Shown here: positions 19,977-27,257 of the stretch, one piece after another
How positions within the stretch are numbered: the first letter of the stretch is position 1
How the letters are laid out: every line of letters starts with the position of its first letter
Source: Oscillospiraceae bacterium
Lineage (GTDB): Bacteria; Bacillota; Clostridia; Oscillospirales; Ruminococcaceae
Direction: 5' to 3'
DNA length: 30,305 nt
Assembly (NCBI GenBank): GCA_017483405.1
Contig: JAFUWP010000033.1
Span: forward strand, 1 to 30,305
The notes under the pieces: generated by a model
What the model was told of the DNA's origin: nothing
Database searches by the model: none
Seen by the model: the letters and a program-made list of their open reading frames with translations, nothing else
Translations under genes and position numbers: made by a program

Positions 19977-20125
19977 AAGCAAAAACAACTCCTTTGAAGT
20001 TCTGGCGTTCTGTGTGACTTCTTATTGATAGTATCGCATCTGGGACGCGTTTTATACAAAGCCGGCGAAATTTTTCTACAGTCCTGCTATTAATCTATGC
20101 TGATAATTCAGGAATGTGCAGGGAC

Positions 20126-20154
20126 TTGACAAATGATAAAAAATATGCTATAAT
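20126..20154 (+). promoter_or_regulatory. Consensus sigmaA promoter for tRNA-Gln
   Basis: TTGACA-17 nt-TATAAT with TGc extension. Confidence 0.88.
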
Positions 20155-20168
20155 AATTACTGTCATAC

Positions 20169-20244
20169 TGGGGCGTAGCCAAGCGGTAAGGCAACGGACT
20201 TTGACTCCGTCATCCCGTGGGTTCAAATCCCGCCGTCCCAACCA
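20169..20244 (+). tRNA. tRNA-Gln (anticodon TTG), CCA encoded
   Basis: Acceptor TGGGGCG/CGTCCCA, D arm GCC..GGC, anticodon arm ACGGA-CTTTGAC-TCCGT, T arm GTGGG-TTCAAAT-CCCGC, 3' ACCA. Confidence 0.97.
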
Positions 20245-22283: not shown

Positions 22284-22312
22284 TAGACTTTTTGTCAGAA
22301 ATGTGCTATAAT
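22284..22312 (+). promoter_or_regulatory. sigmaA promoter
   Basis: TAGACT-17 nt-TATAAT with TGc extension. Confidence 0.7.
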
Positions 22313-22399
22313 GACAATGAGGTTTTGTGCGGGTCTCCGCCCGATTCCTCGGGCAAGACTCTGAAATTATATATTATCATAAAAGGAGAATTTTTTATC

Positions 22400-23278
22400 A
22401 TGAGACTGAAAAATATGCTCGCTGTTGCAGCTGCTTTCGCGTTCTGCACTGTATCTTTCGCTTCTCTGGCCGCTAACGCAGGCGAAGAAAAAACTATCGA
22501 CTGCTCCAATGCCAGCGACCTCGGTTTAGGCGATGAGGGTAACGCTGTCCGCAGAAATATCTATAATACATGGGGCAACAATGTGACTGATATTGATGCC
22601 AATACAGCCGTTTCTGAATATATTTCCATCGAATTCACCATCAGCGGCATCGGTTCTGATTCCGCCAGAAAAGATGCTGATTCCACTACAAAATATGATG
22701 GCGATGGTACAAACTATGTTGCTTTTGTAGGCGGTTCTGTAGCTGGTACAGCTCGTCACTCCATCACCGGCGGTGACCCGACTGATGAATATATTACCAT
22801 CAGTGGTGACGGTACTTATACTGCAACATGGACACTCGGCGACCTCAGCTCCGAAAATATCAGCTGCCTGTATCTCCAGACAAATATCGACTTTACAGAT
22901 TATGTTGCTGAAGCTGACAAGGAAACTGCTGAAAAAAATAAAGATGTTGCCGCATCCGGCATCACCCTGACTATCAATTCCATCAAGACAGTAGAGCCTG
23001 ATGCTGCCGAAGAAACCAGCGAAAGCGAAACCAATGCCGAAACAGAAGGTTCTTCTGAAACAGATGCCGCTACAGAAAGCACAACAAAGGCTACTACTAC
23101 CACAACAGCAAAATCCAGCACAACAACTACTACTGCGAAATCCGCATCTACAACTGCGGCTACTACTTCCAGCACTGTTACAAATACTCCTACAGGCGAT
23201 ACTTCCGGTATTGCAGTGGTAGCATCTGTTCTGACAGCTGCCGGTGCTGCTGCTGTTGTTTCCAGAAAGAAAAAGTAA
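22400..23278 (+). CDS. Secreted, probably sortase-anchored (NPXTG-like) surface protein with beta-rich domain and Ser/Thr-rich stalk
   Basis: Signal peptide MRLKNMLAVAAAFAFCTVSFASLAANA; TTTTTAKS repeats; NTPTG, hydrophobic helix, RKKK tail; RBS AAAGGAG. Confidence 0.8.
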   Translation: MRLKNMLAVAAAFAFCTVSFASLAANAGEEKTIDCSNASDLGLGDEGNAVRRNIYNTWGNNVTDIDANTAVSEYISIEFTISGIGSDSARKDADSTTKYDGDGTNYVAFVGGSVAGTARHSITGGDPTDEYITISGDGTYTATWTLGDLSSENISCLYLQTNIDFTDYVAEADKETAEKNKDVAASGITLTINSIKTVEPDAAEETSESETNAETEGSSETDAATESTTKATTTTTAKSSTTTTTAKSASTTAATTSSTVTNTPTGDTSGIAVVASVLTAAGAAAVVSRKKK

Positions 23279-23313
23279 TTTTTCTGATGATTAATATCTC
23301 AAATGGTTCAAGC

Positions 23314-23344
23314 AAAATGCCCTCTGTTCCGGAGGGCATTTTTT
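23314..23344 (+). terminator. Intrinsic terminator
   Basis: AAAATGCCCTC..GAGGGCATTTT plus a T run. Confidence 0.8.
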
Positions 23345-23364
23345 CTAAGTGAGGCGATTTTATC

Positions 23365-24243
23365 TTGAAAAAATATTATCTGTTCCTGCTCCTGACGGCT
23401 TTTCTCCTGACGGGGTGCAGTCAGAATACAGATTCTTCCCAGCAAACAGCGGAAACTTCTGCTCCCCAAGAAATCACAGAATCCGAAACGGAATCCCTTC
23501 CGCCGCCGACTAACGCGCCCTTTCCGGAGGCTGACCCTAATGCCGTTACGTTCGATGACGGGAATTTCAGTTTCGTTTCTGTTGTCAAAGATGATGATAC
23601 TGCCGTGGATGGCTCTCTTTCTGTCGAAACTATTGACGGAAATGCAATGCTCAAATTCACGGATAATTCTACCAATGCCGAAAATCTTGATAAAGCCGTG
23701 CAGAAAATCAGAATTTCTGTCGGTCAGCTCCTTCGGCCTGACCAGCTTGAAAGCGTTTATCGGATTACTTTTGATTTGTATGCCGAAGCCAAAGATGCGC
23801 TTTTTCTCAGCGATGACGGCGAATATCGCAAAGTAGCCGGCTGGATTGGCGGAGGCGGAGGGACTATCTGCGCCGATGGCAACTGGTATAGTTTCGCCGA
23901 TTTTTCTGCATCCGGCATTAATGAATTCGATTTGGAGCGTTCCGATGCGTGTCATGTCGAATTCAAGTTTCTGCTTGCCGAGTCCGGCAAAAAATGGGAC
24001 AGCTCGGTCGAAGATGTCAATTTTTCTGTCATGAGATGGGGAATGCAGAATCTTTCTGATTTCTATCTGGATAATATTACATTCTACGACCAAGAAGGCA
24101 ACCCCATTCCGCTGAATCCTTCCGAACCCGAAACTTCTGCCGTTCAGGAATCAGAACTTTCTGAAACAGAATCATCAGAAGAAGAAACTGTTCCGAAATC
24201 TGAAACGGCACTTCCCGAAACCGAAACAGAGGCCGTATCATGA
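23365..24243 (+). CDS. Putative lipoprotein with beta-sandwich-like central domain and acidic termini
   Basis: TTG start after GAGG; MKKYYLFLLLTAFLLTG-C lipobox. Confidence 0.75.
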   Translation: MKKYYLFLLLTAFLLTGCSQNTDSSQQTAETSAPQEITESETESLPPPTNAPFPEADPNAVTFDDGNFSFVSVVKDDDTAVDGSLSVETIDGNAMLKFTDNSTNAENLDKAVQKIRISVGQLLRPDQLESVYRITFDLYAEAKDALFLSDDGEYRKVAGWIGGGGGTICADGNWYSFADFSASGINEFDLERSDACHVEFKFLLAESGKKWDSSVEDVNFSVMRWGMQNLSDFYLDNITFYDQEGNPIPLNPSEPETSAVQESELSETESSEEETVPKSETALPETETEAVS

Positions 24244-24869
24244 AAAAAATATTCCCTCTGCTCGTGATGTGCGCTGTTCTGCTCAACGGATGCGGTTTCG
24301 CCGGCGAAAACTACCGGAATTATGTCACGGCTATCCTTGACTGTACCTATCACGGCGAATCTTCCGCTTATCGTGAACTCACAAACGCTTCTGAACTGAG
24401 TGCCGATGCTATCTATCAGAACGAATTTCAGGAGCTGAATCAGCTTATTTATGATACTTACGGCATCCGGCCGGATTTGATTTCCGAGGAAACACGCGAG
24501 GATTATCAGAAACTTACCAGAAACATCCTCATGAAAACAAAATACAATGTTCGGGATGTCATGCACGAAAATCAGGCATATACTGTCGTTCTGGTGCTGT
24601 CGCCGGTCGATTTCTGGAAAACTTCTCAGGAAAAAATCAGAATATATTACTATTCTGAATTTTTCCGCAAATTCCGAACCGCCCCCACGCAGGCCGATGC
24701 CGATAAGCTCGAACAGGAATATGCATCCAGAGTTCTCCAAATCCTTACCGATTCTGCCGAACATATAGAGTATCTCGAACCCGTTGTCTATACCTGCACG
24801 ATTCAGAATAATACTGTCTCTGCCGATGACTGGCAGGCAATCGACAGAATTCTTCTCAGTCTTGATTAA
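24240..24869 (+). CDS. Putative lipoprotein
   Basis: MKKIFPLLVMCAVLLNG-C lipobox; ATGA overlap with the upstream gene. Confidence 0.75.
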   Translation: MKKIFPLLVMCAVLLNGCGFAGENYRNYVTAILDCTYHGESSAYRELTNASELSADAIYQNEFQELNQLIYDTYGIRPDLISEETREDYQKLTRNILMKTKYNVRDVMHENQAYTVVLVLSPVDFWKTSQEKIRIYYYSEFFRKFRTAPTQADADKLEQEYASRVLQILTDSAEHIEYLEPVVYTCTIQNNTVSADDWQAIDRILLSLD

Positions 24870-24876
24870 TCTCATC

Positions 24877-24910
24877 AGAAAGCCGGAAAGTGTATGCTTT
24901 CCGGCTTTCT
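24877..24910. terminator. Hairpin terminator after the lipoprotein pair
   Basis: AGAAAGCCGGAAAG-tgtatg-CTTTCCGGCTTTCT (14-bp perfect stem). Confidence 0.7.
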
Positions 24911-24914
24911 GCGC

Positions 24915-24944
24915 AAAAAAAAGCAGACCGTCTTTCAGGTCTGC
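24915..24944 (-). terminator. Intrinsic terminator (candidate sRNA and ricT operon)
   Basis: Minus strand GCAGACC-tgaaagac-GGTCTGC-TTTTTTTT. Confidence 0.85.
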
Positions 24945-24976
24945 CCAAAAAATAATAAGGATGTAGGATTTATGAT
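24915..24976 (-). ncRNA. Candidate ~62-nt small RNA
   Basis: Own sigmaA promoter, predicted +1 A at 24976, no AUG, and an intrinsic terminator. Confidence 0.6.
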
Positions 24977-24982
24977 AGTTAT

Positions 24983-25011
24983 ATTATAGCATATATTACT
25001 GATTTTGTCAA
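24983..25011 (-). promoter_or_regulatory. Consensus sigmaA promoter with no downstream CDS
   Basis: Minus strand TTGACA(25011-06)-17 nt-TATAAT(24988-83) with TGc extension. Confidence 0.85.
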
Positions 25012-25083
25012 GTTTTTTATCATCTTTTTGTATGCTTGACCAAATTCATAAGCCGATATTCTACATAATCCACAAAAGCAAAA

Positions 25084-25944
25084 TCAGCCTTCGAGCTTTT
25101 TCAGTTCTTTTTCTTCTTTGGAAACCTTTGGTTTTCCGGCTTTTAAGATTTCCACTTCGGAACGGTCTACCGTATACGGCACATCATCAGGGTTTTCCGG
25201 CCGGATGCGCAGTTTTCCGGTTATCAGATTGGCATCCTCGACACGACCCTTTCCGTGTGATGTCTTGACAAACGAACCGATGCGCGGTGTAATCTTCTGT
25301 AAATCTTCATAGGCCTCCTGTTCGTGCTTGAGACAGCACATCAGACGGCCGCATGTGCCGGAAATCTTTGTCGGATTCAGAGACAAGCCCTGTTCCTTCG
25401 CCATCTTGATAGATACCGGCTGAAAATCTCCCAGATACCCCCGACAACAGAATTCCCGTCCGCAGACTCCCAGTCCGCCGAACATTTTTGCTTCATCGCG
25501 GACTCCTATCTGACGGAGTTCAATCCGCATCCGGAATACAGAGGCTAAATCTTTTACCAGTTCACGGAAATCCACACGGTTATCAGATGTAAAATAAAAT
25601 AATAATTTACTGTTATCGAATGCACAGCTGACATCGACAAGCTTCATCTTGAGCTTGTGGGATGCGATTTTCTGTTCGCAGACCGTGAAAGCCTTTTTTT
25701 CTTTCTGCTTATTCTGCTCCAGAGTCCGGAAATCTTCCTGATTCATTATCCGGAGCACGTTCCGCAGGGGAGCGGTAACGGCTTCATCCTGCACATTCCG
25801 GTTCGGAATCGAAACAATCCCGCATTCCGTGCCTTTTGCCGTTTCGACTACGACTTTATCTCCCATCTGAAGACGGAGGCCGGCCGGTGAAAAATAATAG
25901 ACTTTTCCGGAGTTCTGAAAACGAATTCCTACAATTTCAGTCAT
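25084..25944 (-). CDS. ricT: PSP1-domain protein RicT/YaaT
   Basis: EIVGIRF...GKVYYF, FYFTSDNRVDFRELVKDLA, RIELRQIGVRDEAK..GG.G.CGR..CC, ISG.CGRLMCCLK.E. Confidence 0.95.
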   Translation of the reverse strand: MTEIVGIRFQNSGKVYYFSPAGLRLQMGDKVVVETAKGTECGIVSIPNRNVQDEAVTAPLRNVLRIMNQEDFRTLEQNKQKEKKAFTVCEQKIASHKLKMKLVDVSCAFDNSKLLFYFTSDNRVDFRELVKDLASVFRMRIELRQIGVRDEAKMFGGLGVCGREFCCRGYLGDFQPVSIKMAKEQGLSLNPTKISGTCGRLMCCLKHEQEAYEDLQKITPRIGSFVKTSHGKGRVEDANLITGKLRIRPENPDDVPYTVDRSEVEILKAGKPKVSKEEKELKKLEG

Positions 25945-25965
25945 AAATACATAATCCTTTCTCAA

Positions 25966-26943
25966 CTAGTTCAGAAGCAGATTTCCGCCAAGCGCAGATA
26001 ATACCAGTTTCAGGCTGACACTTGCCTGTGATGCCTCATAAGCTGACTGTACTGCCTGACAAAGCCGTTCCGCACGGGATGCCGTCAGCATTCCTGAAAG
26101 CAGTTCCGCAGACTGCCGGTCACATCCGGTCAGAATATCATCTCTGTATTTCAGCGTACAGGCATCGCGAAACTGCAAAAGCAGTAACTGCAACAGCTTT
26201 TCCGCCTGTACACGGTCTTTTTCATAGCCTGACAGAATTCTTAAAATTTCATATTGTCTTCTCTGTGCGACAGCGAATGTCAGTTCCGATGCGTGACGGG
26301 TCATCTCCTGCATGGAAGTATCTTCCAGCCATCGGAGCGCAAGGCCGATATTTCTGCCTCCTGTCGATTTGATTGCCCTTCCGGCATCTTCCGGCGTACA
26401 GTCATGCTGTTCTGTCAGGGCGCGGAAACAGTCTTCCGGCGTACACGGCCGGATGGCTATCTGCATCATTCGGGAAAGCATCGTTTCCAGAAACGCGCTT
26501 TTCGATACTGCGGTGAATAATAACAAAACATGTTCCGGCGGTTCTTCCGTCAGTTTCAGAAGTGTGTTCTGTGCCGGAATCCCGATATTATCACAATCCG
26601 CAAATAAATAAATCTTCCTGTCGCTGTCATTCGGGGCAACTATGGCATCACGGCAGATTTCCCTGACCGTTTCGACCGAAAAACCCTGTTTTTTGCCGGA
26701 ATGTTCCACAGGAATCAAATCCGGATGGACTCCGTGCAGAATCTTCTGACAGTTCCGGCACGTTCCGCAGGGGGCATCTTCTCCCGTGCATAACACCGTC
26801 ATAGCGAAATATTCCGCGAGCGTTTTCCGTCCCGAACCCTTTTCCCCATAAAACAGACACGCATGGGGAATGTGTCCGTTCTGATGCATTTTCCGCATCA
26901 GATGCAGATTTTCATCATTGCCATAAATGTTCAGACTGCTCAT
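25966..26943 (-). CDS. holB: DNA polymerase III subunit delta'
   Basis: HACLFYGEKGSGRKT, PCGTCRNC zinc motif, HPD, AQNTLLKLTEEPP, L.T..SR. Confidence 0.9.
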   Translation of the reverse strand: MSSLNIYGNDENLHLMRKMHQNGHIPHACLFYGEKGSGRKTLAEYFAMTVLCTGEDAPCGTCRNCQKILHGVHPDLIPVEHSGKKQGFSVETVREICRDAIVAPNDSDRKIYLFADCDNIGIPAQNTLLKLTEEPPEHVLLLFTAVSKSAFLETMLSRMMQIAIRPCTPEDCFRALTEQHDCTPEDAGRAIKSTGGRNIGLALRWLEDTSMQEMTRHASELTFAVAQRRQYEILRILSGYEKDRVQAEKLLQLLLLQFRDACTLKYRDDILTGCDRQSAELLSGMLTASRAERLCQAVQSAYEASQASVSLKLVLSALGGNLLLN

Positions 26944-27257
26944 AATTTTTCAAATCGTTCGACATCCGTCACGAATACCGTTGCACCGCCGACTTCGACT
27001 TCTACCGGCAGTTCGATTCCGGAATTGATGGGCGTACTGTTCGGAACAGTTTTCTTCCGCTTATGGCTTTTTTCACGGATGACGCTGATTAATTCTTCCA
27101 GACGGTCTTCCTCCACGCAGGTCAGAAATGTTGTATTTCCTGCACTCAGGAATCCGCCTGTTGATGCGAGTTTTGTCGCGTAAAATCCGGCATTCAGAAG
27201 TGCTTTTCCGACTGCCTGACTGTCATCACTGTTGACGATGGCAAATACCAGTTTCAT
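26940..27257 (-). CDS. darA: c-di-AMP receptor DarA/PstA (PII-like, YaaQ)
   Basis: MKLVFAIVNSDD, ATKLASTGGFL.AGNTTFL, VEVGGATVFV; upstream of holB. Confidence 0.92.
   Translation of the reverse strand: MKLVFAIVNSDDSQAVGKALLNAGFYATKLASTGGFLSAGNTTFLTCVEEDRLEELISVIREKSHKRKKTVPNSTPINSGIELPVEVEVGGATVFVTDVERFEKL

What the first reader, a model, noticed from the sequence alone, without database searches (positions are those of the whole stretch)
24915..25011. Orphan consensus promoter driving a ~62-nt sRNA with anti-Shine-Dalgarno-like motifs
Seen in sequence: a minus-strand TTGACA-17-TGcTATAAT promoter lies 3' of ricT with no CDS downstream. The predicted transcript from A24976 is AUCAUAAAUCCUACAUCCUUAUUAUUUUUUGGGCAGACCUGAAAGACGGUCUGCUUUUUUUU. 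It has no AUG, a low-structure 5' half with tandem AUCCU/AUCCUU, and a terminator. UCCUU is complementary to AAGGA ribosome-binding sites. Established: Firmicute sRNAs such as RoxS/RsaE and FsrA use unpaired C-rich seeds against SD sequences. Inference: an undescribed trans-acting translational repressor.
Basis: partly seen in the sequence, partly recalled or inferred. Interest (0 to 1): 0.75.

Follow-up and report, generated by a model that had tools for sequence, protein, structure and literature searches.

The report
Conserved 62-nt Ruminococcus small RNA gene
The flagged promoter-to-terminator unit is a real, previously uncatalogued small RNA gene kept in nearly every species of one rumen Ruminococcus genus; its unpaired 5' end is unchanged across species and is complementary to a ribosome-binding site plus start codon, so it probably blocks translation of some mRNAs, though no transcript data or confirmed target exist yet.

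Summary
A 12/12 TTGACA-17-TGnTATAAT promoter (25011..24983, minus strand) sits 30 nt upstream of a terminator hairpin with a U8 tail. There is no ORF, and the next gene is convergent.

Comparative genomics shows this is a gene.
- A covariance model finds exactly one copy in 47 of 50 species of the genus. It finds no true copy in 149 other genera of the family.
- From the predicted +1, 23 nt (AUCAUAAAUCCUACAUCCUUAUU) are invariant, while the promoter spacer is only about 50% conserved.
- The terminator stem changes sequence but keeps pairing: 6 of 8 pairs covary.
- In five species the whole cassette is inverted between the same neighbours, so it is not merely the ricT 3'UTR.

The 5' end is unstructured. 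It reads as the antisense of an ideal translation initiation region: A-rich tract, AAGGA, 10 nt, AUGAU. Diverged copies still keep CAU and ACAUCCUU at the same spacing. Hfq is present and CsrA was not found.

Translational repression is inferred, not shown. No RNA-seq data could be found. Target prediction is not better than shuffled controls that keep the anti-SD and anti-AUG. The best candidates are an MraY/WecA-family transferase and yajC.

It matches nothing in Rfam 15.

The parts
24915..24976 (-). Predicted sRNA transcript, 62 nt (+1 = A24976; 3' end inside the U8 tract)
   Evidence: The promoter geometry puts +1 seven nt after the -10. Sequence invariance across species begins exactly at this base. 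The covariance model R1 scores 78.7 bits here, and there is one hit per genome in 47 of 50 species of the genus.
24954..24976 (-). Invariant single-stranded 5' region AUCAUAAAUCCUACAUCCUUAUU (seed). It carries CAU (anti-AUG, nt 3-5) and two AUCCU motifs, the second being the anti-SD UCCUU (nt 16-20).
   Evidence: Column identity is 1.00 over +1..+23, against 0.53 in the promoter spacer. The region is unpaired in the MFE and consensus folds. Diverged copies in G212, G012 and G024 keep CAU and ACAUCCUU at the same spacing.
24947..24953 (-). U-rich linker (AUUUUUU) before the terminator; possible Hfq proximal-face or rim site
   Evidence: It is U-rich in nearly all 45 variants, but its length and sequence vary. 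Hfq genes were found in 5 of 5 genomes tested. Hfq binding is inferred.
24915..24946 (-). Intrinsic terminator: stem 24946..24938 / 24929..24921, loop 24937..24930, U8 tail 24922..24915
   Evidence: Found by the terminator scan. In RNAalifold, 6 of 8 consensus pairs show compensatory double changes across 45 sequences.
24983..25011 (-). Sigma-A-type promoter: -35 TTGACA (25011..25006), 17-nt spacer, extended -10 TGcTATAAT (24991..24983)
   Evidence: 12/12 match with the TG. Column identity is 0.97 for the -35 and 1.00 for both the TG and the -10, while the spacer is 0.53. Its closest look-alikes in the genome are tRNA gene promoters.
25012..25044 (-). Conserved upstream blocks: an A-tract or UP-like region (-49..-36) and tTTnGnnaa...caAaa (-68..-50)
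   Evidence: Column identity is 0.65-0.68, against 0.43 for the neighbouring -80..-69. These blocks travel with the cassette where it is inverted.
25057..25075 (-). Semi-conserved palindrome-like element TTGTGcAnTnTGcAcAAnA at -99..-81 (a degenerate version in this window: TTGTGGATTATGTAGAATA); candidate transcription-factor site
   Evidence: Column identity is 0.71, against 0.43-0.45 in the flanks. It is present in the inverted cassettes as well. Similar palindromes lie upstream of other strong promoters in the genome. Function is unknown.
25084..25944 (-). ricT (PSP1-domain protein, 286 aa), the usual upstream neighbour. No terminator separates it from the sRNA promoter, so ricT read-through probably ends at the sRNA terminator.
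   Evidence: Pfam PSP1, 5e-36. The synteny holds in most of the 64 loci. The ATG at 25944 follows the conserved AGAAAGGAU SD.
24877..24910 (+). Separate perfect hairpin that closes the convergent + strand operon (ORF 24240..24869); not part of the sRNA
   Evidence: Read from the sequence. The convergent ORF is conserved next to the sRNA in most relatives.

Best explanation
This is a stand-alone gene for a roughly 62-nt regulatory RNA. A very strong, tRNA-gene-like sigma-A promoter starts transcription at A24976, and an intrinsic terminator ends it in the U8 tract. The RNA has three parts: an unstructured 23-nt 5' seed, a U-rich linker, and a terminator hairpin with a poly-U tail. That is the minimal layout of Hfq-type base-pairing sRNAs. 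The seed is the antisense of a canonical translation initiation region. UAUUAUUCCUU pairs with the A-rich tract plus the AAGGA Shine-Dalgarno. Ten nucleotides further on, CAU (with the flanking U2 and A1) pairs with AUGA(U). The most likely action is pairing with the ribosome-binding region of a set of mRNAs so that the 30S subunit cannot bind, giving translational repression, possibly followed by mRNA decay. The best current target candidates are the mRNAs of an MraY/WecA-family glycosyltransferase and of the Sec accessory protein YajC. Both carry GGAUUUAUGA(U/A), which matches sRNA nt 1/2-11. What is shown: the gene anatomy, its conservation, the covariation, its independence from ricT, and the complementarity. 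What is inferred: expression, Hfq dependence, repression, and which mRNAs are targets.
For: Gene anatomy.
- A 12/12 promoter and a terminator are present.
- The 5' 30 nt are unpaired.

Conservation.
- There is one CM hit per genome in 47 of 50 species of the genus, at 58-84 bits in 44 of them.
- A 48th copy is cut by a contig end.
- There is no true hit in 149 other genera of the family.
- Invariance starts exactly at the predicted +1. Column identity is 1.00 over +1..+23, 0.53 in the promoter spacer, and 0.43 further upstream.
- Six of 8 terminator pairs covary.
- The cassette, including about 100 nt of upstream sequence, is inverted between the same neighbours in 5 species.

Seed design.
- Diverged copies keep CAU(3-5) and ACAUCCUU(13-20) at the same spacing.
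- A whole-genome duplex scan puts translation initiation regions at the top.
- The real RNA gives 11 TIRs at or below -18 kcal/mol, against 0.6 for full shuffles.

Candidate targets.
- The yajC TIR scores at or below -18 in 23 of 30 genus species. In 28 other genera of the family it never goes below -14.8.
- The GT4 TIR keeps GGAUUUAUGAU in the distant species G005, at -23.0 and -18.4.

Cofactors and precedent.
- Hfq was found in 5 of 5 genomes, and CsrA in 0 of 5.
- csRNAs of Streptococcus carry anti-SD and anti-AUG sequences in an unpaired region and are thought to block ribosome access (PMC3091779).
Against: - No transcript evidence. No RNA run holding this DNA could be listed, and the two metatranscriptome runs that were laid showed nothing over the sRNA.
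- Target prediction is not specific. Shuffles that keep only CAU and UCCUU in place give similar numbers of strong TIR hits: at or below -18, the real RNA gives 11, the shuffles a mean of 4.9 and a maximum of 16.
- In the two-genome ortholog test only one pair (GT4) is strong in both genomes, and 6 of 40 such shuffles do as well.
- Complementarity of yajC, GT4 and ftsE is lost in some species that still keep the canonical sRNA.
- The yajC contrast between genera is confounded by shared ancestry.
- An 11-nt seed does not explain why all 23 nt are invariant.
- Two species (G001, G008) have lost the cassette at the ricT locus, so it is dispensable.
Confidence: 0.6

Rival explanations
1. Global anti-initiation RNA. 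It would be an abundant RNA made from a tRNA-type promoter. It would imitate, in one linear strand, the two elements a 30S initiation complex uses to read an mRNA: a 16S-tail-like anti-SD and the initiator-tRNA anticodon CAU. It would compete broadly with ribosomes for many start sites, or tune initiation with growth rate, rather than control a few specific targets.
For: The complement of the seed matches the genome's own TIR consensus: A-rich, then SD, then a U-rich spacer, then AUGA. The features that survive in diverged copies are just CAU and ACAUCCUU at canonical spacing. The promoter resembles tRNA promoters. No specific conserved target stands out.
Against: Most TIRs are predicted to pair only weakly, with a median of -8.4 kcal/mol. 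Invariance of the spacer-pairing nucleotides 6-15 suggests specific partners. The gene is dispensable in two species. There is no abundance data.
Confidence: 0.12
2. Protein-binding or sponge RNA. The invariant 5' sequence, with its tandem AUCCU motifs and U-tract, would be the binding site of an RNA-binding protein (Hfq itself, a KH or S1 protein, or an RNase). The RNA would then act by titrating or guiding that protein rather than by pairing with mRNAs.
For: Invariance over all 23 nt is more than a typical seed needs. The AUCCU motif is repeated in tandem. Target prediction gives no significant signal.
Against: No candidate partner is linked to the locus. CsrA, the classic titrated protein, was not found, and the motifs are not GGA. 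The anti-SD and anti-AUG spacing is exactly that of a TIR and survives in diverged copies, which base-pairing explains more simply.
Confidence: 0.12
3. A ricT-linked cis element. The sequence would serve mainly as the 3'UTR and terminator of the darA-holB-ricT operon, or as an RNA made from it by processing. Alternatively it would act as an antisense or transcription-interference device against the convergent operon.
For: There is no terminator between the ricT stop and the sRNA promoter, so ricT transcripts should run into the sRNA terminator. The sRNA sits next to ricT in almost all species. In this subclade the ricT TIR matches 15 of 20 positions of the seed complement.
Against: The unit has its own consensus promoter, conserved as strongly as the RNA. 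The cassette is inverted relative to ricT in 5 species. In most species the ricT TIR has an SD-AUG spacing of about 6 nt, which does not fit the 10-nt spacing of the seed.
Confidence: 0.08
4. A DNA-level element (operator, recombination site or replication site) or a tiny leaderless ORF, rather than an RNA regulator.
For: It is single copy per genome, invariant, and intergenic between convergent genes.
Against: The invariant block is not palindromic. It begins exactly at the +1 of a conserved promoter and is followed by a covarying hairpin plus a U-tract. It has no AUG, GUG or UUG at the 5' end. Reading frames are broken by indels in the linker.
Confidence: 0.03

Closest known systems
csRNAs (cia-dependent small RNAs) of Streptococcus (PMC3091779)
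   Same: Short non-coding RNAs from very strong promoters. Their unpaired region carries both an anti-Shine-Dalgarno and an anti-start-codon (CAU) sequence, and they are proposed and partly shown to block ribosome access at translation initiation regions.
   Different: csRNAs are about 90-150 nt. Their anti-TIR lies between two stem-loops, they occur as multi-copy paralogues, and they depend on a CiaR direct repeat (TTTAAG-N5-TTTAAG) in place of a -35. Here the RNA is 62 nt and single copy, with the anti-TIR at the very 5' end, one hairpin, a consensus -35 and no TTTAAG. There is no Rfam match. The host lineage is also different (Oscillospirales-type Ruminococcus).
5'-seed, Hfq-dependent enterobacterial sRNAs such as RybB, OmrA/B and MicC (general knowledge)
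   Same: The layout is the same: a highly conserved single-stranded seed starting at +1, a U-rich stretch, and a Rho-independent terminator with a long U tail. Conservation is concentrated in the 5' end while the terminator drifts.
   Different: There is no sequence relationship. Those sRNAs are sigma-E or EnvZ/OmpR controlled and target outer-membrane protein mRNAs. Hfq dependence here is only inferred from the presence of hfq.
   Same: Firmicute trans-acting sRNAs that use pyrimidine-rich unpaired motifs to pair with SD regions.
   Different: RoxS/RsaE use C-runs (CCCC/UCCC) displayed in hairpin loops of a roughly 100-nt structured RNA. This RNA has no C-run (its longest is CC), no loop display, and an added anti-AUG. 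There was no Rfam hit at or near threshold.
rseX (Rfam RF01401), the best sub-threshold Rfam hit
   Same: A short AU-rich RNA ending in a GC hairpin plus a U-tail.
   Different: The score is 29.9 bits against a gathering score of 50, with E = 0.34. The aligned stretch (24916..25005) includes untranscribed promoter DNA. This is a chance resemblance.

Membership tests
csRNA (Streptococcus cia-dependent sRNAs) | CiaR-dependent promoter with the direct repeat TTTAAG-N5-TTTAAG replacing the -35 | tested here: not met
   There is no TTTAAG within 110 nt upstream of +1, and the -35 is the consensus TTGACA.
csRNA (Streptococcus cia-dependent sRNAs) | Unpaired anti-SD plus anti-start-codon region flanked by two stem-loops | tested here: not met
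   The anti-SD and CAU are present and unpaired, but they lie at the 5' end and there is a single (terminator) hairpin.
csRNA (Streptococcus cia-dependent sRNAs) | Sequence and structure similarity to the curated family model | tested here: not met
   cmscan against Rfam 15 at E up to 10 lists no csRNA family for 24000..26000. Nothing reaches gathering score in the window except a tRNA.
RoxS/RsaE (RF01820) | Several C-rich (CCCC/UCCC) motifs in loops or unpaired regions; match to RF01820 | tested here: not met
   The transcript has no run of three or more C. There is no RF01820 hit even at E up to 10.
Hfq-type base-pairing sRNA (functional class) | Single-stranded conserved seed | tested here: met
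   +1..+23 is invariant and unpaired.
Hfq-type base-pairing sRNA (functional class) | Rho-independent terminator with a tail of at least 6 U, preceded by a U-rich stretch | tested here: met
   A hairpin with a U8 tail, and a U-rich linker (AUUUUUU) just upstream.
Hfq-type base-pairing sRNA (functional class) | Hfq encoded by the organism | tested here: met
   PF17209 hits above cut-off in 5 of 5 genomes, including this one.
Hfq-type base-pairing sRNA (functional class) | Physical binding to Hfq and Hfq-dependent regulation of a target | not testable with these tools
   This needs co-immunoprecipitation or RIL-seq, plus genetics.
Hfq-type base-pairing sRNA (functional class) | The RNA is expressed as a discrete primary transcript | tested here: inconclusive
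   No RNA run holding the locus was listed. Two metatranscriptome runs that were laid gave no contig over the sRNA. Short RNAs are usually lost from such libraries.
rseX (RF01401) | Score at or above the Rfam gathering threshold (50 bits) | tested here: not met
   29.9 bits, E = 0.34, and the alignment spans promoter DNA.

The most novel reading that the evidence does not exclude
The RNA is a genus-specific 'initiation-complex mimic'. It would be a single 62-nt strand, made at tRNA-like levels, that presents a 16S-tail-like anti-SD and the initiator anticodon CAU at ribosomal spacing. It would compete globally with 30S subunits for start sites. That would set a translation-initiation threshold across the proteome, favouring mRNAs with strong or atypical start regions, rather than regulating a small regulon.
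Probability: 0.12. Interest if true: 0.8.

Novelty: new member of a known kind. Interest (0 to 1): 0.48.

Why it matters
Regulatory RNAs of rumen and gut Ruminococcus, most of them uncultured, are essentially uncharted. Here comparative genomics alone defines a complete sRNA gene at single-nucleotide resolution: upstream control elements, promoter, +1, seed and terminator.

The seed is unusual in joining an anti-Shine-Dalgarno and an anti-start codon at the very 5' end of one of the shortest sRNA layouts possible. This gives a convergent counterpart to the streptococcal csRNAs and a clean model for how start-site-blocking RNAs evolve.

If the candidate targets hold (a lipid-carrier glycosyltransferase of the MraY/WecA family and YajC of the Sec machinery), the RNA would link envelope synthesis or secretion to an as yet unknown signal. 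That signal would presumably be read by the conserved upstream palindrome. The covariance model built here can be used to annotate the RNA in rumen metagenomes and metatranscriptomes.

Tried and rejected
1. Rfam 15, at gathering score on the whole window and at E up to 10 on 2 kb. Only sub-threshold chance hits appeared (rseX at 29.9 bits, rli61, sbrA and others), driven by the hairpins.

2. Expression. Two run searches and one read-laying found only DNA metagenomes from bovine, sheep and other animal guts. Two metatranscriptome runs from the same study as one DNA holder gave no contig over the sRNA. No conclusion is possible.

3. Homologues outside the genus.
- The CM hits in genome G136 are the antisense of a real TIR and a coding stretch, so they are false positives.
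- The two 'Patescibacteria' hits of the 20-mer have neither promoter nor terminator.
- A relaxed promoter-plus-seed pattern in metagenome contigs gave one chance hit.
- Nothing was found in viral contigs.

4. A second copy in the own genome. The C237 match is the antisense of another gene's TIR.

5. ricT as a universal cis-linked target. This was rejected because the SD-AUG spacing of the ricT TIR is about 6 nt in most species, against 10 nt in the seed.

6. ftsE as a conserved target. Complementarity is confined to close relatives, 7 of 30.

7. Statistical support for targets. The count of strong TIR hits and the two-genome ortholog test (G000 against G005, 563 pairs) do not exceed shuffles that keep CAU and UCCUU.

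8. Small peptide. There is no start codon at the 5' end, and frames are not preserved across species.

9. dif-like or operator DNA site. Rejected on anatomy: not palindromic, with promoter-registered conservation and a covarying hairpin.

10. Literature. Full-text searches for Ruminococcus sRNAs found nothing describing this RNA.

Full report
**What is in the sequence**

On the minus strand, ricT (PSP1 domain, Pfam 5e-36) ends at 25084. Seventy-three bases further on lies TTGACA (25011..25006), then a 17-nt spacer, then TGcTATAAT (24991..24983). It is the only 12/12 promoter match in the 2 kb scanned.

Seven bases after the -10 is A24976. From there the strand reads AUCAUAAAUCCUACAUCCUUAUUAUUUUUU. 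A 9-bp GC-rich hairpin (24946..24921) and eight U (24922..24915) follow.

The fold leaves the first 30 nt unpaired (-14 kcal/mol, z = -2.7). There is no AUG. The next gene (24240..24869) is on the + strand, convergent, and has its own perfect hairpin at 24910..24877.

**Is it a gene?**

BLAST of the 181-nt intergenic stretch against 40 relatives gave two kinds of match.
- The promoter part resembles many other promoters. The best of these drive tRNA genes, including the tRNA at 20169 in this window.
- The -10 plus the first 45 transcribed bases are 93-96% identical in species whose flanks do not align.

Reading the loci shows that the variable discriminator ends, and invariance begins, exactly at the predicted +1. 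An exact 20-mer scan of one genome per species found 44 further real copies, all in MAGs named Ruminococcus sp., Oscillospiraceae or Clostridia from rumen and animal gut. It also found two chance hits lacking promoter and terminator.

In the 45 distinct sequences (alignment A1):
- 22 of the first 23 columns are invariant and the other two are above 90%.
- The terminator stem differs in sequence but keeps pairing, and 6 of 8 consensus pairs show double compensatory changes.
- Column identity is 1.00 for +1..+23, the TG and the -10; 0.97 for the -35; 0.53 for the promoter spacer; and 0.43 for -80..-69.

There is an ascertainment caveat. About half of those sequences were fished with an exact 20-mer. 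The BLAST set and the census below were not.

A covariance model (R1) finds exactly one hit in 47 of the 50 species held for the genus, and 44 of these score 58-84 bits. Of the three without a hit:
- G019 has the copy cut by a contig end.
- G001 and G008 lack the cassette at the ricT locus.

In 149 other genera of the family there is no true hit. The two hits in G136 are the antisense of a transporter gene's start region and a coding stretch. Nothing was found in viral contigs, and a relaxed pattern in metagenome contigs gave only a chance match.

**Independence from ricT**

In most species the order is holB, ricT, sRNA, all co-directional, followed by the convergent 209-aa ORF. In five species (L018/L038, L022/L046, L026/L048, L062, L071) the sRNA points the other way between the same neighbours. 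In those cases it carries about 100 nt of upstream sequence with it.

The unit is therefore a self-contained cassette, not just the ricT 3'UTR. In the common orientation ricT has no terminator of its own, so its mRNA probably also ends at the sRNA terminator.

**Upstream control region**

Three further blocks are conserved besides the promoter:
- an A-tract at -49..-36;
- tTTnGnnaa...caAaa at -68..-50;
- a palindrome-like TTGTGcAnTnTGcAcAA at -99..-81, degenerate in this window.

Similar palindromes lie upstream of other strong promoters in this genome, for example those of pyruvate phosphate dikinase and an EF-G paralogue. No functional theme is clear.

**What the RNA looks like functionally**

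The complement of the seed is AAUAAUAAGGA-UGUAGGAUUU-AUGAU. That is an A-rich tract, an SD, a 10-nt spacer (8 nt if counted from the end of a full AAGGAGG) and a start codon followed by A. It mirrors the genome's own start-site consensus.

The three diverged copies are:
- G212: AUCAUAAACCCUACAUCCUUUGU
- G024: AUCAUAGAUUCUACAUCCUUAUU
- G012: GUCAUAAGAUAUACAUCCUUUAU

They show what is least dispensable: CAU at nt 3-5 and ACAUCCUU at nt 13-20, at unchanged spacing.

A whole-genome duplex scan places start regions at the top. With 1,627 crude gene starts, 11 score at or below -18 kcal/mol, against 0.6 for full shuffles. Shuffles that keep only CAU and UCCUU in place give 4.9 on average (maximum 16). 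The tendency to hit start sites therefore comes from those two elements.

Hfq is encoded in 5 of 5 genomes tested, and CsrA in none. The U-rich linker and long U tail fit an Hfq-type sRNA, but binding is untested.

**Candidate targets**

The best start regions in this genome belong to:
- a glycosyltransferase-4 (MraY/WecA-family) gene, -23.0;
- ftsE, -22.8;
- yajC, -21.8.

Names are, energies.

Across the genus, yajC keeps a score at or below -18 in 23 of 30 species, usually through GGAUUUAUGAA. In 28 other genera of the family the yajC start region scores -5 to -15 and never has that motif. This is suggestive but confounded by ancestry.

The GT4 gene keeps GGAUUUAUGAU in about a dozen species, including the distant G005.

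To go further I fetched the whole G005 genome and compared 563 ortholog pairs. Only GT4 is strong in both genomes (-23.0 and -18.4), and 6 of 40 anti-SD/anti-AUG-preserving shuffles do as well.

ftsE complementarity is limited to close relatives. The ricT start region fits only in this subclade.

The targets are therefore unresolved. The mechanism rests on anatomy and analogy.

**Comparison with known RNAs**

Nothing in Rfam 15 reaches threshold. The rseX hit (29.9 bits against 50) spans promoter DNA.

The closest functional analogue is the streptococcal csRNA family. These RNAs carry anti-SD and anti-AUG sequences in an unpaired region and are thought to hinder ribosome access (PMC3091779). 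This RNA fails their defining features: it has no CiaR box, one hairpin and a 5'-terminal seed, is single copy, and does not match the model.

In layout it resembles the 5'-seed Hfq sRNAs of enterobacteria.

Text searches found no description of this RNA. That is not independent evidence.

**Verdict**

This is a real, well-delimited, genus-restricted sRNA gene (confidence about 0.9). A base-pairing, start-site-blocking mode of action is the best-supported mechanism (about 0.6). Expression, Hfq dependence and targets remain to be shown. It is a new family of a known kind of regulator.

Noticed in passing
window 25057-25075 (-), and G000 contigs C420:3181, C428:1009, C405:496, C399, C344: A palindrome-like motif TTGTGCAnnnTGCACAA lies about 45-65 nt upstream of the -35 of the sRNA promoter. 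It also lies upstream of several other strong promoters: pyruvate phosphate dikinase, an EF-G-family gene, a divergent pair on C420, and others. It may be the site of a global regulator. It is not a clear match to the Rex, cre or Fur boxes that I recall.
   Followed up: partly
window 20124-20241 (+): The tRNA gene at 20169..20241 is driven by a promoter (TTGACA-17-TGcTATAAT) very like that of the sRNA. The same promoter type precedes tRNA-Gln and tRNA-Ser elsewhere in the genome (L002, L007). This suggests a shared class of very strong stable-RNA promoters.
   Followed up: partly
window 22292-24869 (+): Three co-directional ORFs (328 aa; 292 aa with a lipoprotein signal; 209 aa) converge on the sRNA. 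They have no Pfam or NCBIfam family beyond a lipobox hit. The 292-aa and 209-aa ORFs are syntenic with the sRNA across most of the genus.
   Followed up: no
window 25084-27257 (-): The darA(CdAMP_rec)-holB-ricT block of Firmicutes is present, with a darA/holB overlap. The ricT start is most likely the ATG at 25944, preceded by the genus-wide AGAAAGGAU SD, and not the TTG at 25965 given by the mechanical ORF list.
   Followed up: partly
L253 (G008) and L254 (G001), downstream of ricT: Two species of the genus have lost the sRNA cassette. In G008 the ricT stop is followed directly by a bidirectional terminator. In G001 a different promoter and gene follow. A close relative of G008 (G012) keeps a strongly diverged copy (GUCAUAAGAUAUACAUCCUUU).
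   Followed up: partly
L035 and L065 (MAGs labelled Patescibacteria): Both contain the same 24-nt string AGCATAAATCCTACATCCTTATAT without promoter or terminator, apparently inside coding sequence. This is probably a conserved codon string and unrelated to the sRNA.
   Followed up: no
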